In this document: piece after piece, positions 1-44,881 of the stretch
Layout of the letters: each line of letters begins with the position of its first letter
Position numbering within the stretch: position 1 is the first letter of the stretch
Source of the DNA: a phage
Direction: 5' to 3' (one strand)
Sequence record: PV730301.1
Length of the DNA stretch: 44,881 bases
Notes under the pieces: generated by a model
The model's input: only the letters and a program-made list of their open reading frames with translations
Databases searched by the model: none
What the model was told of the DNA's origin: nothing
Translations under genes and position numbers: made by a program

Positions 1-127
1 GAAACGACGCATCACCGGCGTCTCCGCTGACGCCCCTGGTGCCAAGATTGACATGGCGACTATTTCTCCTGCGTCTTTTTCTACCCCACTTAACGCTACT
101 ACCGAGGTTACCGCACCCGCCGCATTG
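1..127. repeat. 127-bp terminal direct repeat, identical to 44755..44881 (circular assembly overlap or terminal redundancy)
   Basis: Exact identity of the first and last 127 bp read directly from the sequence; an ORF runs continuously across the junction. Confidence 0.9.
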
Positions 128-26380: not shown

Positions 26381-28621
26381 CTATTCCAAATCTTCCTCGG
26401 TCACTATCAGCATCTCATTCGGTTCGTATATTGTCTTTGGTCTTAATCTGTCACCCATCTTTTCCGGTATACGGTATGTACCGGGGATAACCTCGCCGTT
26501 AGCATCACATCCTAGCATCAACTCACCGTCTTTCAGCATCTTCTCGAGATGGTGGTTAGTGATGGCATGGTCACCCGAGTTCGATACTATCTGCCGTTGG
26601 GTAAAACCTCGTCCGGTGTCGTCAGACTGTTGCAGGTCTTCCAGCGCGGCGAGTATGGATTCCTTCCTTCCTTCATCCTTCCCACGTTTTACGGCATTCT
26701 TTACGTTTTCTTTACCTTCCTTTGTCATCCCTTCTTCCCGCTCTTTCTCCTCGTCAGTTTTGAACGGCTCGAAGCCCCACGGCATCAGCACAAGCGCCTT
26801 GTGCGGTTCCGGCAGGTCGAGGTTTACGATTGTGCCGTATTCCTCTGTGCTACCGAGGAACTCAACCGCACGGTACTCTTTCGGTGGTGGCGCTTCACGG
26901 AACTGTACCGACTCCAGCACCATGCCAACCGTCTTCTGTTGAGGGCCATGCTTAAATTTCGAGTGGTATACGTTTATCTGACGGTCGGTCGCACGCTCAA
27001 TTGTCAGTTCTACGTCAACGCCCGCGTACAGCGCCCCACTGCCACGGGCTTTCTTGCCACCCTTCGGCGTGTGGTGAACAACGCCTACCGCGGCTTTAGT
27101 TGCGTCACGTACTTCTTTCAGGATGGCGATAACTTTACCCATACCGATTGCCGTTGATGAGCTGTTCTCGTCGAACTTATCAATCGTCAGGGCCAGGGTC
27201 TGGTTAAGGGTGTCGAACGCGACCATGCCGATAGGTTCATCACCTGCAGTTTCGCGCATCAGCTTAATCAGGTTTCTCAGTTTCCCGACTTCGCCCATGT
27301 CGATAACATGTACATAATCTTTACCTTCCTCGCCATATTTAGCCGCGAGCGCGTCGATACGTGTGCGGGTAGCCGCGCCACCTTCACCATCAATATAGAA
27401 GTGATGGCAACGCTGGGTATCCGCCCCTGCGAACCGGTATCCGGCGGCGCTAAGGTACATCATCCCGAGCGTATAAAACGATTTGTACGTGCCGGATTCT
27501 CCGACAATATCCCAGATGCAATCAGACGGCATGTACCCCTCGACGACGAAATCAGCCTTTACCGGTTCCGGTAACTCGTCCTCCTCTGAGTCTTCGTCGT
27601 CTTCCAGGTCGTCGAGACTGCATGAAACTGATTCACGCGCACCCCACCCGATAGCCTCGGCGACTTCACTGAACGGAAGCCCGGTCGCGTCGCACGCGTA
27701 CTTCCACACCTCTTTCGGGGACATGCCTTCGGTTGCCGTAATGTCGGTGTCGTGAATCATGGTTACGTTCGGCGCTTCGTATCCCTCGCGCGGGAAACAC
27801 AGAAGGAAGTCGTCCGGGCGCGGGGTCGGGTCGCTGTAGTTTTCTGCGTGTTCCGGCGTAGCTGGCATCTTAAGGCCGCGCGGCGTCATGACGCCCCCAT
27901 ACTCGAACGCCAGGGATTCGAACGCATCTGTAAACGCGGTGCGCAGTTCTTCCGGTATCTGATAATCCGATGCGCTGCTAACATCAACGGCGGGGATACC
28001 TTCCAGTAACTCGTCCGGGTCAATTAGGTCGTTGCGACGCGACCAGATAACAGTAGAGCCAACCGGCGGCAGATACATCGGCTGCGACAGAGTAAACCCG
28101 CTTCGGTCAGCACCCATGCCTTTGAAGAAATGCTCCAGTAATCCATGACGAACGCGGATGATGTCGCCGCCTTCAACCGGGCGAGCCAGCGGCATGACGA
28201 CACGGAACCGCGGTGACTCTTCGGTATGTGATGCCGTGGTGTAAAGGCACACCGCCTGGCGGCTACGCTTAACCAGGCGCACCGCTTCCTGATACTCTTC
28301 CGGTGTTGCACTGTCAAAGTCTAGATACGCCAGCGACGATTTGCTTACAGACGCATCGCAGCGATAGAAGAAGCCTTTACGCGCTTGCTTAAAGTCACCT
28401 GTTTCCGGGTCTTTTACGGTGCTGTGCGTAGCGTCACACGCGGCGGTGATATACCCCGGCGCGGTCTTCGGGTTAATTCCGCCACGAACGGCATCAAGCG
28501 GCTGGATTAACTCTTTCAGGTCGTCCAGTGTTGCCGTGTGTGTGGTTCTGACGTTTATATCCTTTTTCTCTGCCCGCGCGTTGCGACGTGACCACGAGTA
28601 GGATAAAATTACATCGGACAT
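26381..28621 (-). CDS. primase/helicase (N-terminal primase-like domain plus RecA-like AAA_25 domain)
   Basis: RecA-like region FYIDGEGG...VVHHTPKGGK; start at ATG 28621 (track gives a GTG at 28663); C-terminal VTEEDLE tail. Confidence 0.65.
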   Translation of the reverse strand: MSDVILSYSWSRRNARAEKKDINVRTTHTATLDDLKELIQPLDAVRGGINPKTAPGYITAACDATHSTVKDPETGDFKQARKGFFYRCDASVSKSSLAYLDFDSATPEEYQEAVRLVKRSRQAVCLYTTASHTEESPRFRVVMPLARPVEGGDIIRVRHGLLEHFFKGMGADRSGFTLSQPMYLPPVGSTVIWSRRNDLIDPDELLEGIPAVDVSSASDYQIPEELRTAFTDAFESLAFEYGGVMTPRGLKMPATPEHAENYSDPTPRPDDFLLCFPREGYEAPNVTMIHDTDITATEGMSPKEVWKYACDATGLPFSEVAEAIGWGARESVSCSLDDLEDDEDSEEDELPEPVKADFVVEGYMPSDCIWDIVGESGTYKSFYTLGMMYLSAAGYRFAGADTQRCHHFYIDGEGGAATRTRIDALAAKYGEEGKDYVHVIDMGEVGKLRNLIKLMRETAGDEPIGMVAFDTLNQTLALTIDKFDENSSSTAIGMGKVIAILKEVRDATKAAVGVVHHTPKGGKKARGSGALYAGVDVELTIERATDRQINVYHSKFKHGPQQKTVGMVLESVQFREAPPPKEYRAVEFLGSTEEYGTIVNLDLPEPHKALVLMPWGFEPFKTDEEKEREEGMTKEGKENVKNAVKRGKDEGRKESILAALEDLQQSDDTGRGFTQRQIVSNSGDHAITNHHLEKMLKDGELMLGCDANGEVIPGTYRIPEKMGDRLRPKTIYEPNEMLIVTEEDLE

Positions 28622-28680
28622 GTTGTATATTCCTTCAGCAAGTAATTTGGCCTCGGCGTTCACCGCGTCGGGGCTTTCTT

Positions 28681-28914
28681 TTATTCCAGGTCTTCTAAAG
28701 TGGCCGTCATTCCGCGAACTTCAGCAACGGCACTATATTTCCCGCCAACATTTTTCACGACACCGGATTTAACCAGTACACGTAACGACCCTTCAATGAT
28801 GGCGGAACTATAGTACTTAAAATAACTACGGCGCAAGTCGATAACGCTGCACGACCCTTTTTTACGTGTTAACGAAACGACCGCCGTAAATACGCGTGAC
28901 TGGAACTCGGTCAT
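28681..28914 (-). CDS. hypothetical protein with C-terminal TLEDLE tail
   Basis: ATGA coupling to the upstream AlpA-like gene. Confidence 0.5.
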   Translation of the reverse strand: MTEFQSRVFTAVVSLTRKKGSCSVIDLRRSYFKYYSSAIIEGSLRVLVKSGVVKNVGGKYSAVAEVRGMTATLEDLE

Positions 28915-29081
28915 TTCACGTTCTCCTTAATCCACGCTTCCACTTTCTCCGGGTCGAACGTACCTGGCTGGCGGCGGCCCATAATGCGAATACAACAATC
29001 GGGGAACTTCCCACTCTTTAACCAGTTATTCAGTGTGCGGCGAGTAACCCCGATACGCTCAGCTACTTCATTCTGTGTCAT
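28911..29081 (-). CDS. AlpA/excisionase-family HTH regulator
   Basis: MTQNEVAERIGVTRRTLNNWLKSGKFP matches the AlpA-type HTH; start placed at ATG 29081. Confidence 0.6.
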   Translation of the reverse strand: MTQNEVAERIGVTRRTLNNWLKSGKFPDCCIRIMGRRQPGTFDPEKVEAWIKENVK

Positions 29082-29113
29082 TCTCAAACCCCCATTATCA
29101 GTTAACGAAACCA

Positions 29114-29142
29114 AGTATACATTGTGAATAATGGGAAATCAA
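29114..29142 (-). promoter_or_regulatory. sigma70-like promoter (TTGATT-17-TATACT) for the AlpA-primase operon
   Basis: Hexamers read from the sequence; spacer carries an ATTATTCACA variant of the conserved element. Confidence 0.45.
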
Positions 29143-29511
29143 ACATAATCGCACCTATTGACATTATGAAAATCTTCGTTTAAGGTGCTTCTGTATCTTA
29201 GTTACTTTGATTCCTGTTCACCTTGTAAGAATGTTTAACCCGTGCGTCAAGCAAAGGGTTAAACACAGGCTTACTGAACATTCGAATTATCGTAACTTTC
29301 CTTCCTTAGTATCTCAGGTTGCCCTGGGCAAGCTCTATTCTCATCGGCAGCTTATCTCTTAAGTATCTGATTTTCTTAATGTGCCGTAGATTCGCAACCG
29401 TAAAAATGTAACGATTATTGGGCAGGCTTAAGGCCTGCCCTTTAGTTACCAAGTAATAAGAATAAAGGCACAACCATCCCTGAAAAATCACAACGGCAAC
29501 GTAACCATCTC

Positions 29512-29540
29512 TTGCACACCCCGACATAATAGGATACTAT
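29512..29540 (+). promoter_or_regulatory. sigma70-like promoter (TTGCAC-17-TACTAT) with the conserved element
   Basis: Hexamers read from the sequence; same architecture at 30871..30899. Confidence 0.5.
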
Positions 29541-29568
29541 TCACTTATCAAAACGAAACCGAGGAGCG

Positions 29569-29766
29569 ATGGTTATGTTTAAGAAGGGTCAATTGGCTAA
29601 AACTAAACGTGGAGGGCAATATGTATTAGTGTTGCAGGACTAGAACGAGTATGACCAGGATAATCTGGTTGACGTATGGGGTCTGGTAAGAAAGAAAACT
29701 GGGTTCGCCTTACGCGATAATTTAGAACTCATCGGCAACAATTTTAAATTCAAAGGGGTGAAGTGA
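29569..29766 (+). pseudogene. small ORF interrupted by an in-frame TAG at 29641 (amber allele, readthrough or sequencing error)
   Basis: GAGGAG RBS; 24 codons, TAG, then 40 more codons ending in TGATG coupling to the next gene. Confidence 0.35.
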
Positions 29767-29969
29767 TGGAAGAATTATTTGAAGAACTGAAACATCATAG
29801 ACTAGAGAAGGTGCATTTCCAGGTAAACAGATACGAGGTTGTTTTGCTAGACGGCCCGACTATTTCTTCCGGGACATGTGGGCTCTTGTTGAAAGTTTTA
29901 CGTGCGCTCCGAACGGCATCGAATCATGATGCTCGTGCCGACGACTCTGAGGGAGGTTGCCGTGAATAA
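29766..29969 (+). CDS. hypothetical protein
   Basis: AGGGGTGA RBS; ORF. Confidence 0.5.
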   Translation: MEELFEELKHHRLEKVHFQVNRYEVVLLDGPTISSGTCGLLLKVLRALRTASNHDARADDSEGGCRE

Positions 29970-30135
29970 TATTTTAATTGTGGGGGTTGGTATGAGAGAA
30001 GCATTTGAGCGGTGGGCCGTCGTCGAGGGTCTGCCGGTTAACAAGGGTTCAAAGAAAGAGTACCTGAACGTTAAGACGCGTCTCGCGTGGCGGGCGTGGA
30101 AAGCTGGTGTGCAAGCTGTGATGAATAAGGGGTGA
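29962..30135 (+). CDS. hypothetical protein (GTG start)
   Basis: GGGAGG RBS 5 nt before GTG 29962. Confidence 0.4.
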   Translation: MNNILIVGVGMREAFERWAVVEGLPVNKGSKKEYLNVKTRLAWRAWKAGVQAVMNKG

Positions 30136-30138
30136 GAT

Positions 30139-30444
30139 ATGAGCGAAGAACTTAAAGCATTTTATAAAGCCTACGCTGCGTGGCTCGATGCTGGTGCGGT
30201 TAACAATGGCGTATTCACATGTTGCACCGGACTATGCTTCGCATTACATAAATGGGCAGGCGATAAAGGTTACAACCTCCGCGCTCTGCGCCTGGAGTTG
30301 AAAGCACAGTTTACCAACGCCGGGTTAGATTCGGGCTACCCGTTTAACCACGGCGAACGCAACTATGACGTTGAGTGCGACGATGAAACAATCCACCTAA
30401 ATCCGGCGCGCATCGCCTGGGTACGTAAACACGCGACTGATTGA
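30139..30444 (+). CDS. hypothetical protein
   Basis: AAGGGGTGAG RBS; ORF. Confidence 0.5.
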   Translation: MSEELKAFYKAYAAWLDAGAVNNGVFTCCTGLCFALHKWAGDKGYNLRALRLELKAQFTNAGLDSGYPFNHGERNYDVECDDETIHLNPARIAWVRKHATD

Positions 30445-30521
30445 TATGTGTAACCAGACGACAGCCCTGCTGCTATTCTGAGCCTGGTAAAGTATTAACT
30501 TAGTAATAGAGGACTTGATAA

Positions 30522-30722
30522 ATGAGCGAGTGGGTTAAGTGCCGCGACAGGATGCCGGAATGTTTTACGGATGTGCTGGTTTCTGACGGTTCCTATGTAG
30601 AAGTTATGACGCTGCTTGGCGACGGCACCTGGCTTGCGCTGCTGGGGGATTGGGCTACATGTGTTTCTGTTGACAGGATAACTCACTGGATGCCGTTACC
30701 CGAGCTGCCACCCCCGGTATAA
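30522..30722 (+). CDS. DUF551-like protein
   Basis: W..C.D..P....VLV.DG......HWMPLPELPPP pattern typical of DUF551; AGAGGA RBS. Confidence 0.55.
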   Translation: MSEWVKCRDRMPECFTDVLVSDGSYVEVMTLLGDGTWLALLGDWATCVSVDRITHWMPLPELPPPV

Positions 30723-30755
30723 CAGGTCAATAGGTTACTATTTGGCTTTGTGTCT

Positions 30756-30790
30756 TACGCTGCTACACAGCAGCGTATCATTTTTCTCAT
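30756..30790 (+). terminator. rho-independent terminator
   Basis: 9-bp stem TACGCTGCT/AGCAGCGTA followed by a T-rich tract. Confidence 0.6.
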
Positions 30791-30870
30791 TTTTGTTCTA
30801 TTTCACCAAACGCAACAATCGAAGCGACTATTGCAGGAGATGAAACAATACAAACACCAATAAAATTTAC

Positions 30871-30899
30871 TTGCACACCTGGATATAATAGCCTACTAT
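30871..30899 (+). promoter_or_regulatory. sigma70-like promoter (TTGCAC-17-TACTAT) with the conserved element
   Basis: Hexamers read from the sequence. Confidence 0.5.
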
Positions 30900-30930
30900 T
30901 CATTTACACAAACGAGAGGAGAGACAGAAG

Positions 30931-31080
30931 ATGGTTACTTTGATGGTTATGGAGTTTGAAAACAGCGCAGCAACTTATCGCGAGATGACTATGGCGCAGG
31001 CGTATCACCTGGCTTCAAACGGCAACTTCTACAAGGCTCAAATCATCAATGAGTTCGGGGTAATTGACTATGAATTTTAG
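30931..31080 (+). CDS. hypothetical small protein (49 aa)
   Basis: GAGAGGAGAGA RBS; below the ORF-track length cutoff. Confidence 0.4.
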   Translation: MVTLMVMEFENSAATYREMTMAQAYHLASNGNFYKAQIINEFGVIDYEF

Positions 31081-31342
31081 CAGCTACACCGTTACCGTTG
31101 ATTTTGAGGGGCTGGAATTGCCCCTCCCAAACAACTATCGGTATATAACCCGTGACCGTTTCGGTTTTATTCAGGGGTGGCGGAACAAACCGACAGACAC
31201 TGAGTTCGGAATGTCAGGCGGAGAAGAGTTGCCGATCACTTTCGGGCATCAGAGTAGCAGCGAAGAGCTTAAAACTGTGATTCGTAAGTATCGCCGCCGC
31301 GGTAACACCGGGCTTATAGCGATAACAGGTGCTGTTGAATAA
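31070..31342 (+). CDS. hypothetical protein
   Basis: ORF; start at ATG 31070. Confidence 0.45.
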   Translation: MNFSSYTVTVDFEGLELPLPNNYRYITRDRFGFIQGWRNKPTDTEFGMSGGEELPITFGHQSSSEELKTVIRKYRRRGNTGLIAITGAVE

Positions 31343-31361
31343 ACGAGAGGAGAGAAGGAAG

Positions 31362-31580
31362 ATGTTCCTGGAATGTAAATCCTACGATGGCTATTGGGCG
31401 CTGACTAAAAACGACCTGTACCACCTCAAAGAAGACGGCGATGAGAGCCGCTGCTACATAATAGACGACAACGGCACTGAACTTGATGTCTATTACACTG
31501 GCTACGGCCAATGGGCGCTATCCGCGGACGATGACTTTGTGTTTGAAGAATATAACGGGGAGGAGCCAGAAGATGAGTAG
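31362..31580 (+). CDS. hypothetical acidic protein
   Basis: GAGAGGAGAGAAGGAAG RBS nearly identical to that at 30911. Confidence 0.5.
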   Translation: MFLECKSYDGYWALTKNDLYHLKEDGDESRCYIIDDNGTELDVYYTGYGQWALSADDDFVFEEYNGEEPEDE

Positions 31581-32082
31581 CAAAAACGAAGTATTCGAGT
31601 ACCTGATTGACCAGTTACGGAAGCAGGTAAATAACAACCCGTACAAGCAGCAGTGCGAAGACCTGGCGCACGAGGTGCAGTCACTTAAGAATCAGTTACG
31701 TGACGCGTCGGCGCTGGTGGCTGAGTTACAAGAGACGATAAAACTAATGAACGAGGACTTTAACCGCGTCACAAACCGCGGCGGCCCGCTGCCGAAAGGG
31801 GTGAGCTACGTAGTGGGTGAGCACGGGCCTGAGCAATCCGGTTGCCGTAAAGAGGGCGCACAGGAGTGCGAGCACTCATGGATTATTATGCCTGGGTTGT
31901 TTCTCAGTGAAGGCAATCCGGACAACGTTCCCGGTAGCGAGCTTTGTTCTAAATGCGGTAAACGTGAGTGGGACGACGAGGAATATAAACCGAAAAATGA
32001 TACATCGGAATGCGAGCACGAATGGCAATTTTACGGAGTCGGGTTTCCATGTATGTACCTTAAATGCGGGCTAAAGAAATGA
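31573..32082 (+). CDS. coiled-coil protein with C-terminal Cys-rich zinc-ribbon-like region
   Basis: GGGGAGGAG RBS; CEHSW...CSKCGK...CEHEW...CMYLKCG cysteine pairs. Confidence 0.5.
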   Translation: MSSKNEVFEYLIDQLRKQVNNNPYKQQCEDLAHEVQSLKNQLRDASALVAELQETIKLMNEDFNRVTNRGGPLPKGVSYVVGEHGPEQSGCRKEGAQECEHSWIIMPGLFLSEGNPDNVPGSELCSKCGKREWDDEEYKPKNDTSECEHEWQFYGVGFPCMYLKCGLKK

Positions 32083-32282
32083 CCAGCATCTTATTTATCT
32101 GGGTGTTGTACGCAGGCCAGATGCACCTGACGGCATCAGAAACGTTTTACTCGATGGAGGCGTGCCAGTCAGCGGCACGCGCCGCAGAGAACGCACACTT
32201 CCTGTTTCAGGGTGACAAGCCAAACGATTCAGAGGTGCGCGCTATCTGCTCACCCAAGCGACTTGGTAAACAGGAGAAGTGA
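32079..32282 (+). CDS. hypothetical protein with hydrophobic N-terminus
   Basis: ATGA coupling; ORF. Confidence 0.4.
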   Translation: MTSILFIWVLYAGQMHLTASETFYSMEACQSAARAAENAHFLFQGDKPNDSEVRAICSPKRLGKQEK

Positions 32283-32284
32283 TT

Positions 32285-32557
32285 ATGGTACAGAGATACG
32301 ATTTAAAAGAAGACTGTGTTACGGGGCATATTGACTTAGAGAAAGACGCAGACGGTGACTGGGTGCGTTATGGAGACTACAAGGAACTGGACAACAGTTT
32401 CCAGGACTACATAACAACTACGGACATGGAAATAGAAGGGCTTGTGGTAAGATTGGCAGAAGTAAACGCTGAGTTACAGAAATACAAAGACCAGTTCCCT
32501 GATTACGTCGAGTGCGCGAACTGTGGGTCAATTACACATGTGGAAGGGGTGGAGTGA
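32285..32557 (+). CDS. hypothetical protein, paralog of the next gene
   Basis: AGGAG RBS; begins MVQRYDL like 32557..32751. Confidence 0.5.
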   Translation: MVQRYDLKEDCVTGHIDLEKDADGDWVRYGDYKELDNSFQDYITTTDMEIEGLVVRLAEVNAELQKYKDQFPDYVECANCGSITHVEGVE

Positions 32558-32751
32558 TGGTGCAAAGATATGAATTAGAGCTTTATCATTGCAATGGCGG
32601 AGAGATGGAGCCGTGTGATGAAGGTGGTTACGTAGAGTACGAAGATTACGCGGAGCTGGAGCGAAAACTGTGTAACTTCGCCGCCCAGGTACTGTACTCA
32701 CCTTGTTCGAAAGTTACCGAAGAAATGGCCTGCGAGATTCTCGGTATATGA
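32557..32751 (+). CDS. hypothetical protein, paralog of the previous gene
   Basis: TGATG coupling; begins MVQRYEL; shares the (D/G)(W/Y)V(R/E)Y(G/E)DY(K/A)EL(D/E) motif. Confidence 0.5.
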   Translation: MVQRYELELYHCNGGEMEPCDEGGYVEYEDYAELERKLCNFAAQVLYSPCSKVTEEMACEILGI

Positions 32752-33041
32752 GCCTCGCAACTGACATCCTGAAACGAAGCGGCATTGCGCCGCTGTCACC
32801 GAGAGCTAAAACACAGATATACAAGCGCCGCCGTAACGCGCTGTACCCGGAGATTCAGGCCAGACGCAAAGCGGTCCGCGCCTGTGGGTTCCAGAACGGG
32901 AGGGCGGTGAATCTCGGTGAGTTCAAGACAAAGGAACGCGCCGCTATCGCTAATCGGTTATTTAATTACTGGAAATCGCTGGGATACGATGATATTCCGA
33001 CGAAACCACAGAGACGACAATACATCTGGAGACATAAATGA
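32748..33041 (+). CDS. hypothetical basic protein
   Basis: ATGA coupling on both sides; Arg/Lys-rich. Confidence 0.45.
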   Translation: MSLATDILKRSGIAPLSPRAKTQIYKRRRNALYPEIQARRKAVRACGFQNGRAVNLGEFKTKERAAIANRLFNYWKSLGYDDIPTKPQRRQYIWRHK

Positions 33042-33478
33042 CTACTATCGCGTTCGACGGAAAGACAATGGCCTGTGATACCCGTGTTGTGTGCGGAAGT
33101 AACTGCTACAACACAGACATAAAGATATACGAGAATGATACTTATGTTATAGGGGTAGCGGGTGACGCTGGAGTTGGCACTATGCTTATCGATTGTCCGG
33201 GTATTCTTCGACCACAGCCCTACGACTTCGATTTCGAGGCCCTGGTGTTCGTGAAAGACACAGAAAAGGTGTATAAAGTCGCGTTTTATAAATCATGGGA
33301 TTGTGCACTTAGTTCGGTTATTCCAATTGCGGATAGCTTCGCCGCCGTGGGGTCTGGCTCGCCCTATGCGTTAGCCGCTATGGAATGCGGGTATTCGGCG
33401 CATGGTGGTGTAGCTGTTGCCTCGAAGTTCGACACTAACACCGGCGGCAAGATTATTACCAAACAACTATTAGGATAA
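33038..33478 (+). CDS. HslV/proteasome beta-like Ntn-hydrolase peptidase
   Basis: N-terminal MTTI (Thr nucleophile after Met removal), VIGVAGDAGVGTML and AAVGSGSPYALAA resemble HslV motifs. Confidence 0.65.
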   Translation: MTTIAFDGKTMACDTRVVCGSNCYNTDIKIYENDTYVIGVAGDAGVGTMLIDCPGILRPQPYDFDFEALVFVKDTEKVYKVAFYKSWDCALSSVIPIADSFAAVGSGSPYALAAMECGYSAHGGVAVASKFDTNTGGKIITKQLLG

Positions 33479-33537
33479 TTCCTACCCGTGGTATCCTCCA
33501 GTTACTGCATACTTAATACGCACCTGGAGGATTCATC

Positions 33538-33846
33538 TTGGATAAATTTACTGAAACAGTGACAGGGTGGCTTCTCGCCGCCGCACTAGCCGGAGGGGTC
33601 ATCGGGCTACGACAACATAAGTCCGTTATTTCTGGCCCCATCGACGGGTTCTGCTTTATTGCAACTGGCTTCACCTGCGCCGTATTTGGCGCACCTCTCG
33701 CAGCTCAATGGTTCGGCATTACCGGCGAACGCGAAATAGCTGGCCTCGGATTTATCATCGCTGTTCTCTGGATGCCTATCTATTCCCGCCTTTCTGGCAT
33801 CGTCGCCGGAGAATACATCGCACGTCGAGGAGGCCCGGATGAATGA
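33538..33846 (+). CDS. holin (three predicted TM helices), TTG start
   Basis: Hydrophobic segments; position before the endolysin; GGAGGA 6 nt before the only available start (TTG). Confidence 0.55.
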   Translation: MDKFTETVTGWLLAAALAGGVIGLRQHKSVISGPIDGFCFIATGFTCAVFGAPLAAQWFGITGEREIAGLGFIIAVLWMPIYSRLSGIVAGEYIARRGGPDE

Positions 33847-34111
33847 GTTATTCTGGTTCGGCGGTATGCTGGCAATCGGAGGCACATCGCTGTTTAACGT
33901 GTATCATCCCAGCGTTGACGACGGATTATTTGGCCGTGTGCTCTATATCCTGACCGCTATTGTCTGCGCCGCCGGGTGTATCCACCTGTTACAGGGCAGC
34001 ATGTCACCAACGCTGCCCGAGACCTTAATTACATTAGTTGCGCTGCGCCAGATTCGCCAGGCGTGGCTGTCATACGGAGGACATAAGCGTGTCTCGAAAT
34101 ATTTCAGATAA
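33839..34111 (+). CDS. holin/antiholin-like membrane protein
   Basis: Two hydrophobic segments; ATGA coupling; lies between holin and endolysin. Confidence 0.45.
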   Translation: MNELFWFGGMLAIGGTSLFNVYHPSVDDGLFGRVLYILTAIVCAAGCIHLLQGSMSPTLPETLITLVALRQIRQAWLSYGGHKRVSKYFR

Positions 34112-34577
34112 TGGGTTGCATTTCACTGCCGCGTTCGAGGGGTTCCGCGGAACTGCGTATCGCGCTACACCGAATGAGAAGTACCTGACTATTGGGTATG
34201 GAAGCTATGGCCCGCATGTTAAGGCTGGACAGACCATCACGCCGGGGCAAGGCCTCCTGTTACTTAACCGTGATATGGCTAAGGCCGTGGCTGCGGTTGA
34301 TGCAGCGGCGCACCATTCACTGACACAGGCGCAGTTCGATGCCGTGTGCGACCTGGTCTACAACGCCGGTGCAGGCGTGATTGCCGCTACTACAGGCACA
34401 GGTAAGGCGCTGCGCTCAGGTGATACCGTGACGCTGCGGGCCAAGCTGGCACTGTTCATCAACCAGAACGGCAAACCGTTACTTGGCCTGCGTCGCCGTA
34501 CTGCGGGTCGTCTTGCACTGTTCGACGGTAAACCGTGGCAGGAGGCGGAGGCTATCGGGCGCGCGGTGAAAGGTTGA
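34089..34577 (+). CDS. endolysin, GH24 lysozyme (P22 gp19-like)
   Basis: FEGFRGTAYRATPNEKYLTIGYG and QFDAVCDLVYNAG match the phage lysozyme pattern; GTG start with GGAGGA RBS. Confidence 0.8.
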   Translation: MSRNISDNGLHFTAAFEGFRGTAYRATPNEKYLTIGYGSYGPHVKAGQTITPGQGLLLLNRDMAKAVAAVDAAAHHSLTQAQFDAVCDLVYNAGAGVIAATTGTGKALRSGDTVTLRAKLALFINQNGKPLLGLRRRTAGRLALFDGKPWQEAEAIGRAVKG

Positions 34578-34644
34578 CACCTGAGACTAATCCGACGATA
34601 CTTAAATCACCTCCTGTTCCATCCCTCTGCTCTCCAGTTTTATC

Positions 34645-34675
34645 CCGGCCCTGACCCAGCCGGGATTTTTTTTTT
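34645..34675 (+). terminator. rho-independent terminator after the lysis genes
   Basis: CCCGGC-loop-GCCGGG hairpin followed by a run of about 10 T. Confidence 0.75.
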
Positions 34676-34697
34676 ATCTATTTTCTGTTATGACTAG

Positions 34698-34726
34698 TTG
34701 ACTATTACATTCGACCCTACTATATT
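34698..34726 (+). promoter_or_regulatory. sigma70-like promoter (TTGACT-17-TATATT)
   Basis: Hexamers and spacing read from the sequence; upstream of 34761. Confidence 0.5.
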
Positions 34727-34760
34727 TACTCCATCGACAACGAGAACGGAGTAGAGAGAA

Positions 34761-35009
34761 ATGAATAACGTACCGACAATCGCAATAACCGCGGAACTTG
34801 AAGCTAGATGCATCGCATGGGCTATGGATAACGACCCGGTTGCTATGCGTAAATTTCCAATGAAAATCACAGATACCGAAGCATTCAAAGACGCACAACT
34901 GATGGCACGCATCGCCGTTAGTAACCTGAGCCGCAATATACCGGCGGATGCGTTCTGGTTCGCTGCGATGCAGACACTGAAAGCAGCTTATGCAGGAGAG
35001 AAGAAATGA
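34761..35009 (+). CDS. hypothetical protein
   Basis: GGAGTAGAGAGA RBS; ORF. Confidence 0.5.
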   Translation: MNNVPTIAITAELEARCIAWAMDNDPVAMRKFPMKITDTEAFKDAQLMARIAVSNLSRNIPADAFWFAAMQTLKAAYAGEKK

Positions 35010-44740: not shown

Positions 44741-44881
44741 ATGGCAGACGTATTGAAACGACGCATCACCGGCGTCTCCGCTGACGCCCCTGGTGCCAAG
44801 ATTGACATGGCGACTATTTCTCCTGCGTCTTTTTCTACCCCACTTAACGCTACTACCGAGGTTACCGCACCCGCCGCATTG
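44741..44881 (+). CDS. Ig-like domain virion protein, 5' portion (continues at window start 2..331)
   Basis: ATG with GAGGA RBS; reading frame continues through the terminal repeat. Confidence 0.55.
   Translation, partial: MADVLKRRITGVSADAPGAKIDMATISPASFSTPLNATTEVTAPAAL

What the first reader, a model, noticed from the sequence alone, without database searches (positions are those of the whole stretch)
32285..32751. Tandem paralogous small genes
Seen in sequence: the products of 32285..32557 and 32557..32751 both begin MVQRY(D/E)L and share a (D/G)(W/Y)V(R/E)Y(G/E)DY(K/A)EL(D/E) segment. They are joined by a TGATG overlap, which indicates a local tandem duplication followed by divergence.
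Basis: seen in the sequence. Interest (0 to 1): 0.35.

Follow-up and report, generated by a model that had tools for sequence, protein, structure and literature searches.

The report
Shuffled-cassette small phage gene pair
Two adjacent small genes of an E. coli phage share a protein module with a fixed frame and a swappable, highly variable middle; related phages shuffle this middle between the two genes by recombination, and the function of the family is still unknown.

Summary
ORF A (32285..32557, 90 aa) and ORF B (32557..32751, 64 aa) overlap in TGATG. Both begin MVQRY and share (D/G)(W/Y)V(R/E)Y(G/E)DY(K/A)EL(D/E). BLASTP gives E=3e-6, and 1 of 5000 shuffles reaches the observed score.

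The aligned part is 50% identical in DNA, 8 of 15 identical residues use different codons, no DNA repeat exceeds 14 nt, and the C-terminal halves are unrelated. This is not a recent local duplication.

The shared pieces are the fixed frame of an undescribed N-terminal module of about 35 aa:
- It matches 365 clusters at 50% identity and has no Pfam, NCBIfam or PDB match.
- Its middle occurs as at least 25 discrete cassette types.
- Ten cassette types occur with both A-type and B-type C-termini.
- Of 30 Kagunavirus loci, 16 carry the pair and 14 a single copy.

One relative carries a single chimeric gene. It is 100% identical in DNA to A through the D31-Y32 codons and then switches to B-type sequence, so the frame is a crossover point. 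Every module tested is under purifying selection.

Function is unknown. My inference is accessory binding proteins whose variable hairpin sets specificity. This is ordinary phage mosaicism in an unusually clean form.

The parts
32272..32276 (+). Shine-Dalgarno-like AGGAG, 8 nt upstream of the ATG of gene A
   Evidence: Read from the sequence
32285..32557 (+). Gene A (slot 1), 90 aa: N-terminal module, long helix and C-terminal CxxC knuckle
   Evidence: ORF list; phrog_29624 at E=1.2e-23; 426 homologues; AF2 model with pLDDT 78; pN/pS 0.05-0.5
32285..32299 (+). A: frame piece 1, MVQRY. Homology with 16 related loci ends at 32298-32305.
   Evidence: 2.8-4.3 bits per position
32300..32359 (+). 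A: variable cassette (residues 6-25, DLKEDCVTGHIDLEKDADGD), type N0. Predicted beta-hairpin (strands 5-9 and 16-20).
   Evidence: The same cassette sits in slot 2 of L007 (81% nt identity, pN/pS 0.18).
32360..32392 (+). A: frame piece 2, WVRYGDYKELD. The crossover point of the chimera L034 lies in the D31-Y32 codons (32375-32380).
32393..32494 (+). A: helical segment (residues 37-70; the AF2 helix spans 29-70). Its first part (32393-32458) is absent from the 'short A' genes of most relatives, where homology resumes at 32459-32468.
32495..32554 (+). A: C-terminal FPDYVECANCGSITHVEGVE. C77 and C80 are invariant and H85 nearly so. Predicted small beta-hairpin; its last codons also supply the ribosome-binding site of B.
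32555..32559 (+). TGATG: stop of A overlapping the start of B (translational coupling)
   Evidence: The same 1-nt overlap is present in all 16 tandem pairs.
32557..32751 (+). Gene B (slot 2), 64 aa: N-terminal module and two short helices
   Evidence: ORF list; phrog_37174 at 3.5e-7 and phrog_29624 at 8e-5; 81 homologues; AF2 model with pLDDT 70
32557..32571 (+). B: frame piece 1, MVQRY (3 of its 5 codons differ from those of A)
32572..32628 (+). B: variable cassette (residues 6-24, ELELYHCNGGEMEPCDEGG), type N20. The same type sits in slot 1 of L028 and in the single-copy A-type gene of L036.
32629..32661 (+). B: frame piece 2, YVEYEDYAELE
32662..32748 (+). B: C-terminal module RKLCNFAAQVLYSPCSKVTEEMACEILGI (B-type), unrelated to the C-terminus of A
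   Evidence: pN/pS 0.29-0.55.
32748..32751 (+). ATGA: start of the next gene (32748..33041, phrog_9632) overlapping the stop of B

Best explanation
A and B are two real, translationally coupled genes in the run of small genes just upstream of the lysis cassette of a virulent Kagunavirus (Guernseyvirinae) phage of E. coli.

Shown:
- They are paralogous only in a ~35-aa N-terminal module.
- The module has a fixed frame: M-V-Q-R-Y, then G-x-(W/Y)-V-x-Y-E-D-Y-(A/K)-(E/K)-L-(E/D). The frame encloses a 12-28-residue segment that exists in the phage population as many discrete, internally conserved cassette types.
- Behind the module sit interchangeable C-terminal modules. In A this is a long helix plus a CxxC knuckle; in B it is two short helices.
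- The frame is conserved at the protein level and serves as a site of homologous crossover. Recombination there swaps cassettes between slots and between phages, fuses the two genes into one, and changes copy number.

Inferred, about 70% likely: the tandem arrangement goes back to an old duplication, or to insertion of a second family member, in an ancestor of the genus. It is not a recent local event.

Inferred, about 25% likely: the frame residues form the small hydrophobic core of a three-stranded sheet packed on the start of the helix. This core displays the variable hairpin as a binding surface. The helical C-termini mediate oligomerisation or effector contacts. The proteins would be dispensable accessory factors that bind host or rival-phage targets, with different cassette types matching different targets. 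A phage with two genes would then cover two specificities.
For: Genome identity: about 89% nucleotide identity to Kagunavirus genomes.

Homology limited to the N-terminus.

Ancient, protein-level conservation: 50% nucleotide identity, 8 of 15 identical residues use different codons, and no DNA repeat exceeds 14 nt.

Family architecture:
- 27 N-types and 15 C-types among 202 proteins; 10 N-types occur with both A-type and B-type C-termini.
- Information content is 2.8-4.3 bits for MVQRY, 0.6-2 bits in the middle and 2.5-4.3 bits for the second frame piece. In 393 of 404 cases the module starts within the first 7 residues.
- 365 clusters at 50% identity match the module, with very diverse C-termini.

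Breakpoints: homology with 16 relatives stops at 32298-32305. It resumes at 32459-32468 in 20 relatives. Relatives without B break at 32553-32560 and resume at 32744-32757.

Copy number: 16 tandem pairs and 14 single copies. The first gene always carries the A-type end and the second always a different C-terminus.

Direct crossover evidence: the single-copy chimera in L034 is 100% identical to window 32240-32380 and then switches, inside the D-Y codons, to B-type sequence that closely matches window B downstream of the junction (93% mean column identity over the whole aligned window 32620-32800). The reciprocal combination, P0112, is single-copy in L036.

Purifying selection within a cassette type (pN/pS 0.14-0.40) and in both C-termini (0.05-0.55).

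Structure: both AF2 models give strands at 5-9 and 16-20, bridge residues at positions 2 and 26/27, and a helix starting at 28/29.
Against: No functional evidence of any kind was found:
- no Pfam, NCBIfam or PADLOC hit;
- no PDB sequence hit;
- fold searches return only generic coiled coils or the family itself;
- no literature.

The AF2 models are of moderate confidence (pLDDT 78 and 70; pTM 0.42 and 0.36), are monomers, and rest on alignments from one phage group.

The two cassettes in one genome always differ, but this is not statistically meaningful. My own estimate from the type frequencies is a chance of about 0.18 for 16 pairs.

Old in-place duplication cannot be told apart from insertion of a second family member.

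The 30 loci include near-identical phages, so the counts are not independent.
Confidence: 0.6

Rival explanations
1. One reading: a recent duplication of one small gene in this lineage, followed by rapid divergence of the copies.
For: The genes are adjacent, on the same strand, share their N-terminus and overlap by TGATG.
Against: - The aligned part is 50% identical in DNA and synonymous sites appear saturated.
- No DNA repeat exceeds 14 nt.
- The C-termini are unrelated.
- The same two-slot arrangement occurs in 16 of 30 related loci.
- Closer relatives of each cassette and each C-terminus are found in other phages than in the neighbouring gene.
Confidence: 0.05
2. There was never an in-place duplication. 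The second gene arrived as a ready-made family member from another phage, inserted by recombination at or near gene boundaries. The N-terminal module is a mobile domain that has been fused many times to unrelated C-termini.
For: - The module occurs in other genera with quite different C-termini: Skatevirus 'EaE' proteins, Wifcevirus 191-aa proteins, and DUF551-like and phrog_9174-like fusions.
- B is present or absent as a block with sharp edges at its own start codon and at the start of the next gene.
Against: This cannot be distinguished from an old duplication with the data at hand. The fixed slot order across the genus and the demonstrated recombination between slots fit either origin.
Confidence: 0.3
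3. The shared segments are conserved as DNA signals (recombination sites, or translation or regulatory elements) rather than as protein.
For: Crossovers do fall in them. The 3' end of A doubles as the ribosome-binding site of B.
Against: - Three of the 5 MVQRY codons and 4 of the 7 identical residues of the second frame piece differ synonymously between A and B.
- The frame is conserved as amino acids across 365 clusters at 50% identity.
- pN/pS is well below 1.
Confidence: 0.03
4. The variable middle is produced by a dedicated diversification mechanism such as a diversity-generating retroelement.
For: A hypervariable segment sits between invariant flanks.
Against: - No template-like second copy of either variable region exists anywhere in the complete genome.
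- Variation comes as discrete types of different length, each conserved under purifying selection, not as point-wise adenine mutagenesis.
- Kagunavirus annotations show no reverse transcriptase in the regions viewed. I did not scan every ORF of the window for one.
Confidence: 0.02

Closest known systems
PHROG families phrog_29624 and phrog_37174 (function unknown)
   Same: A matches phrog_29624 at 1.2e-23. B matches phrog_37174 at 3.5e-7 and phrog_29624 at 8e-5. A relative is annotated phrog_29624 in a GenBank record.
   Different: These are sequence clusters without a description. They do not record the frame-and-cassette architecture, and they split the family by C-terminus.
'EaE/Eae protein' annotations in Skatevirus and related siphophages (named after P22 eaE; function unknown)
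   Same: The 153-aa 'EaE' of Salmonella phage Pu29 starts with the same module, MSEVKRYDI...DGAYVNYDDYAELEAK (HMM E=3e-9).
   Different: The EaE name rests on the C-terminal ~120 residues (matches to P22-like EaE start at residue ~34; phrog_492/614/368). A and B lack that part. P22 eaE itself was not shown here to carry the module.
Mosaic early accessory proteins of lambdoid phages, such as Ea22/Ead-like proteins (named from my own background knowledge; not tested here)
   Same: They are small accessory proteins built from an N-terminal piece, a coiled coil and exchangeable C-terminal domains, and they are highly mosaic between phages.
   Different: A and B match no Pfam family above threshold at E<=10, Ead/Ea22 included. 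The phage here is virulent, and the genes lie next to the lysis cassette.
Recombination between tandem paralogues, e.g. esaG immunity gene strings of the type VII secretion system (PMC9484751) and the lpl tandem paralogue cluster of S. aureus (PMC2568036)
   Same: Adjacent non-identical paralogues recombine at conserved stretches, giving chimeras, deletions and copy-number change. The unit that moves does not coincide with the ORF (abstracts listed).
   Different: Those are bacterial chromosomal families with known or suspected roles. Here the genes are 60-90-aa phage genes of unknown role, and the exchanged unit is a 12-28-residue cassette inside a domain.
Classical modular (mosaic) evolution of tailed phages with short conserved boundary sequences (named from my own background knowledge)
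   Same: Exchange of modules at short conserved sequences among related phages.
   Different: The boundaries here lie inside a protein domain and are conserved as amino acids, not at gene borders.

Membership tests
phrog_29624 / phrog_37174 | Significant match to the family HMM | tested here: met
   A matches phrog_29624 at 1.2e-23. B matches phrog_37174 at 3.5e-7 and phrog_29624 at 8.1e-5.
N-terminal MVQRY...YEDYxEL module (family defined here) | Module at the extreme N-terminus with M-V-Q-R-Y and G-x-[WY]-V-x-Y-E-D-Y-x-x-L | tested here: met
   HMM E=3e-18 for A and 1e-18 for B, each match beginning at the start codon. Frame conservation is shown.
P22-type EaE proteins | Similarity to the EaE C-terminal region (phrog_492/614/368) | tested here: not met
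   B matches 'Eae' genes only over its residues 2-44. A and B do not hit phrog_492, 614 or 368, whereas true EaE-like proteins do.
Any curated Pfam or NCBIfam family (including Ead/Ea22-like, DUF551 and Lar) | Score above the curated cut-off | tested here: not met
   No family reaches its cut-off. The best Lar_restr_allev hit, to an extended homologue, scores 14.1 bits against a cut-off of 28.6.
Recent tandem duplication | Recognisable DNA-level direct repeat covering the two copies | tested here: not met
   The longest direct repeat is 14 nt. The aligned N-terminal part is 50% identical in nucleotides.
Diversity-generating retroelement target | Template repeat elsewhere in the genome | tested here: not met
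   blastn-short of both variable regions against the whole window finds only themselves plus chance matches of 15 nt or less.
Diversity-generating retroelement target | Reverse transcriptase encoded nearby | not tested
   No systematic domain scan of all ORFs in the window was run.
Known anti-phage defence components (PADLOC) | Match to a PADLOC model | tested here: not met
   No hit at E<=0.1 for A or B.
Zinc-ribbon or zinc-knuckle proteins (C-terminus of A) | Four metal ligands in one chain, or demonstrated metal binding | tested here: inconclusive
   Only C77, C80 and H85 are conserved in the 90-aa form. Longer homologues add ECEHxW...CxxCG. Metal binding cannot be tested with these tools.

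The most novel reading that the evidence does not exclude
The N-terminal module would be a previously undescribed, widespread phage domain (365 clusters at 50% identity; absent from Pfam, NCBIfam and the PDB). In this reading it is a constant mini-scaffold that displays a hairpin, and the hairpin exists as discrete allelic cassettes kept in the population by balancing selection. The cassettes would act as exchangeable specificity determinants in phage-host or phage-phage conflict, for example as inhibitors or decoys matched to variable host defence or surface factors. The in-domain frame would double as the recombination site that lets phages trade specificities.
Probability: 0.2. Interest if true: 0.65.

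Novelty: new member of a known kind. Interest (0 to 1): 0.4.

Why it matters
For annotation, the two genes should not be read as a fresh duplication. They are two members of one modular family, and the module deserves a domain model of its own.

For phage biology, the locus is a compact and clean example of recombination at protein-level conserved frames inside a domain. It creates chimeras, fusions and copy-number change among otherwise ~90% identical virulent phages.

If the variable hairpin proves to be a specificity element, the locus would be a handle for finding what these abundant small genes target. It would also be a natural scaffold with exchangeable binding loops.

Tried and rejected
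- Pfam, NCBIfam and PADLOC scans of A, B and longer relatives gave nothing above threshold.
- A PDB sequence-profile search gave no hit at E<=10.
- Foldseek of the B model against BFVD gave only a family member.
- Megablast of the locus against 5,426 complete E. coli genomes gave no match, so this is not prophage DNA.
- The promoter and terminator scan of 28400-35000 found 8 promoter-like sites against 8.2 expected, which is uninformative for timing.
- Five literature searches, including the motif strings, found nothing on this family.
- I considered a functional link to the adjacent HslV-family peptidase, with the conserved N-terminus as a degradation tag. I rejected it as a required link because fFiEco02 and L034 carry family members but no peptidase gene.
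- I considered a DGR-type mechanism and rejected it.
- I considered whether 'never the same cassette twice in one genome' is meaningful. It is not significant with 16 pairs.
- The first attempt at a profile word-index search failed because the query was under 40 aa.
Both searches were rerun successfully.

Full report
**What is there**

The window is a complete phage genome of the genus Kagunavirus (Guernseyvirinae). The 3-kb stretch around the finding is about 89% identical to Kagunavirus BCH953P1 and Escherichia phage vB_VIPECOTPH05A, and 328 phage records match it. The locus itself (32200-32800) matches no DNA in 5,426 complete E. coli genomes. The first and last 127 nt of the window are identical, as in a circularised assembly.

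ORF A runs from the ATG at 32285 to the TGA at 32555-32557 (90 aa). ORF B runs from the ATG at 32557 to the TGA at 32749-32751 (64 aa). They sit in a tightly packed plus-strand run of small genes of unknown function (phrog_4653, 1972, 6094, 3766, then A, B, phrog_9632). This run leads into an HslV-family peptidase gene, two holin genes and the endolysin gene (the second holin and the endolysin are named by synteny with annotated relatives). B overlaps the next gene by ATGA at 32748-32751, so start/stop overlaps are the rule in this operon.

**Is the similarity real?**

Yes.
- BLASTP aligns residues 1-42 of A with 1-41 of B: 15 identities, E=3e-6. Nothing aligns in the C-terminal halves.
- The Smith-Waterman score is 62 against 24.8+-4.7 for 5000 shuffles of B, and one shuffle reaches it. 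Without the MVQRY start, 14 of 5000 reach the observed score.
- An HMM built from the N-terminal parts of homologues finds exactly these two ORFs in all six frames of the window, at 3e-18 and 1e-18.

**Is it a local duplication followed by divergence?**

Not in any recent sense.
- Over the aligned part the DNA is 50% identical, and 8 of the 15 identical residues are encoded by different codons. Three of the five MVQRY codons differ.
- The longest direct DNA repeat in 32200-32800 is 14 nt.
- The C-terminal halves are unrelated in sequence and differ in predicted structure. After the shared module (strands 5-9 and 16-20, helix starting at 28/29), A continues as one long helix to residue 70 followed by a small CxxC hairpin. 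B has two short helices.

**What the shared pieces are**

The word-index searches returned 426 homologues of A and 81 of B. Reading them shows a three-part design:
- a constant MVQRY;
- a segment of 12-28 residues that falls into discrete, mutually unalignable types;
- a constant G-x-(W/Y)-V-x-Y-E-D-Y-(A/K)-(E/K)-L-(E/D).

One of several alternative C-terminal modules follows. A simple clustering of 202 proteins gives 27 N-types and 15 C-types, and ten N-types occur with both the A-type and the B-type C-terminus. For example, P0176 combines the N-part of A with the C-part of B, and P0112 is the reverse combination.

I searched a profile of the N-terminal module alone exhaustively against 1.84 billion representatives. 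It finds 365 clusters at E<=1e-3. In 393 of 404 cases the module starts within the first seven residues. Information content is 2.8-4.3 bits per position in MVQRY, 0.6-2 bits in the middle, and 2.5-4.3 bits in the second frame piece.

The C-terminal partners are very diverse, and all are of unknown function:
- EaE-like regions (phrog_492/614/368);
- a DUF551-like domain;
- an 'AWTVW..PVPG..IIAYRVV' domain (phrog_9174);
- zinc-ribbon-like 'ECEHxW..CxxCG' pieces.

That domain has no entry in Pfam or NCBIfam and no relative of known structure.

**Evidence for cassette exchange and recombination between the two genes**

At the DNA level, homology between the window and 16 related loci runs through the upstream gene and the MVQRY codons and stops at 32298-32305. 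In 20 loci it resumes at 32459-32468. Phages without B break at 32553-32560 and resume at 32744-32757.

Among 30 Kagunavirus-type loci, 16 have the tandem pair and 14 have a single family member. Every pair is joined by the 1-nt overlap. In every pair the first gene carries the A-type C-terminal end (..AELQKYKDQFPDYVECANCG..) and the second carries a different C-terminus.

Cassettes move between slots:
- The cassette of A sits in slot 2 of L007 (81% nucleotide identity).
- The cassette type of B sits in slot 1 of L028 (75%).
- The 'EVKAWGLPEPEM' type occurs in slot 1 of L002 and L009 and in slot 2 of L014, with the near-identical EVEKW/EVNAW variants in slot 2 of L001 and L016.

The clearest case is a 43-kb metagenomic phage contig (L034) with a single gene at this position. 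It is 100% identical to the window from 45 nt upstream of A through the D31-Y32 codons (32240-32380). At exactly that point it switches to B-type sequence, which then closely matches window B and the downstream gene; mean column identity over the whole aligned window 32620-32800 is 93%. This is the product expected from a crossover between an A-like and a B-like gene inside the conserved second frame piece. The reciprocal combination (P0112) is also single-copy in its genome. The closest overall relative, BCH953P1, likewise has a single gene with a third cassette type and a B-type C-terminus.

**Are these real, constrained genes?**

Yes. Both have Shine-Dalgarno-like sequences. Comparisons within the same cassette type give pN/pS of 0.14-0.40. 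The A-type C-terminus gives 0.05-0.50 and the B-type C-terminus 0.29-0.55. The variable middle is therefore not junk. Each type is old and conserved, and the diversity lies between types.

**How it most likely works**

Shown: the family architecture, protein-level conservation of the frame, exchange at the frame, copy-number variation and purifying selection.

Inferred from the AF2 models (pLDDT 78 and 70): the frame residues (V2, Y5, W/Y26, V27, Y29, Y32, L35) form the core of a small sheet that packs on the start of the helix. The variable segment is the hairpin between the first two strands plus the following turn.

I therefore think the most likely role is a small accessory binding protein. 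The hairpin would be the specificity surface and the helical C-terminus the oligomerisation or effector part. Two genes would give a phage two specificities. I put this functional reading at about 25%, because no search gave any functional handle. The evolutionary description I put at about 85%.

**Rivals**

- Recent local duplication is contradicted, as set out above.
- Independent arrival of the second gene from another phage cannot be separated from an old in-place duplication.
- Conservation of the frame as a DNA signal is contradicted by the synonymous differences.
- A diversity-generating retroelement is contradicted by the absence of any template copy in the complete genome and by the discrete, length-variable and conserved types.
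- An obligatory link to the neighbouring HslV-type peptidase is contradicted by relatives that have family members but no peptidase gene.

**Comparison with what is known**

The proteins are members of phrog_29624 and phrog_37174, both of unknown function. They are not EaE proteins. The 'EaE' annotation of some proteins that carry the module rests on a C-terminal region that A and B lack. The behaviour resembles recombination between tandem paralogues in bacterial gene strings (PMC9484751 and PMC2568036, abstracts). From my own background knowledge, it also resembles classical phage mosaicism at short conserved boundaries. The difference here is that the boundaries lie inside a protein domain. 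I found no paper on this family.

**Verdict**

This is a new member of a known kind, namely mosaic accessory genes of phages. It has an unusually clean frame-and-cassette design and an undescribed N-terminal domain. Interest is moderate.

Noticed in passing
window 1-127 and 44755-44881: The first and last 127 nt are identical (127/127). This is the usual signature of a circularised assembly, so the window is a complete phage genome of 44,754 bp.
   Followed up: yes
window 31573-32082 (phrog_6094); homologues P0010, P0022, P0110, P0273 and L018:4001-4303: The gene two positions upstream of A carries two 'ECEHxW...CxxCG' zinc-ribbon-like pieces. In several other phages a homologous piece (..SGCRKEDAQECxHxW..CxxCG..) is fused to the C-terminus of the A-type protein. 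That fusion completes the lone CxxC of A and hints that the two proteins work together.
   Followed up: partly
window 32393-32458; compare L010, L016, L017, L022, L028: Most relatives have a 'short A' of 58-67 aa, in which the second frame piece (..YAKLEAELQKYK..) joins directly to the last 30 residues. The helix segment DNSFQDYITTTDMEIEGLVVRLAEV of the window's A is absent or replaced.
   Followed up: partly
L011:3676-4008; window 32501-32512, 32626-32637, 32644-32655: One relative has A and a B-like gene fused in frame at ..FPDYV|KLELKL... The window shows a matching 12-nt micro-repeat: GATTACGTCGAG (DYVE in A) against GGTTACGTAGAG and GATTACGCGGAG (GYVE and DYAE in B). The 'PDYVE' near the end of A may therefore act as a third, weaker crossover point.
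   Followed up: partly
window 32748-33041 (phrog_9632); homologue P0070: The gene downstream of B is found fused to an A-type protein in one metagenomic sequence (..YVECANCG|FQNGKAVNLGEFKT..). This is a deletion joining 'CG' of A to 'ACGFQNG' of the next gene.
   Followed up: no
window 33038-33478: An HslV-family (N-terminal threonine) peptidase gene sits directly upstream of the holins (phrog_1040, 2.5e-35). It is present in some relatives (XY2, UTEC10) and absent in others (fFiEco02, L034).
   Followed up: partly
L004:1501-2076 (Shigella phage CWP003, Wifcevirus); P0280, P0281, P0293, P0362: Some proteins contain the module, or its second frame piece, twice in one chain (..GGYVEYEDYAALEAKYSE.. 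and ..GSYVKFSDYAALEAKYSE..), followed by a coiled coil and an 'AWTVW..PVPG..IIAYRVV' domain (phrog_9174). That same domain is fused to A-type proteins P0034, P0067 and P0116.
   Followed up: partly
window 30522-30722 and 30931-31080: A DUF551 protein (7e-11) and a DUF7170 protein (5.8e-18) lie in the same run of small genes. One family member from elsewhere (P0312) has the N-terminal module fused to a DUF551-like C-terminus; I judged that by eye, and Pfam gave no hit for it.
   Followed up: no
[not shown]
   Followed up: partly
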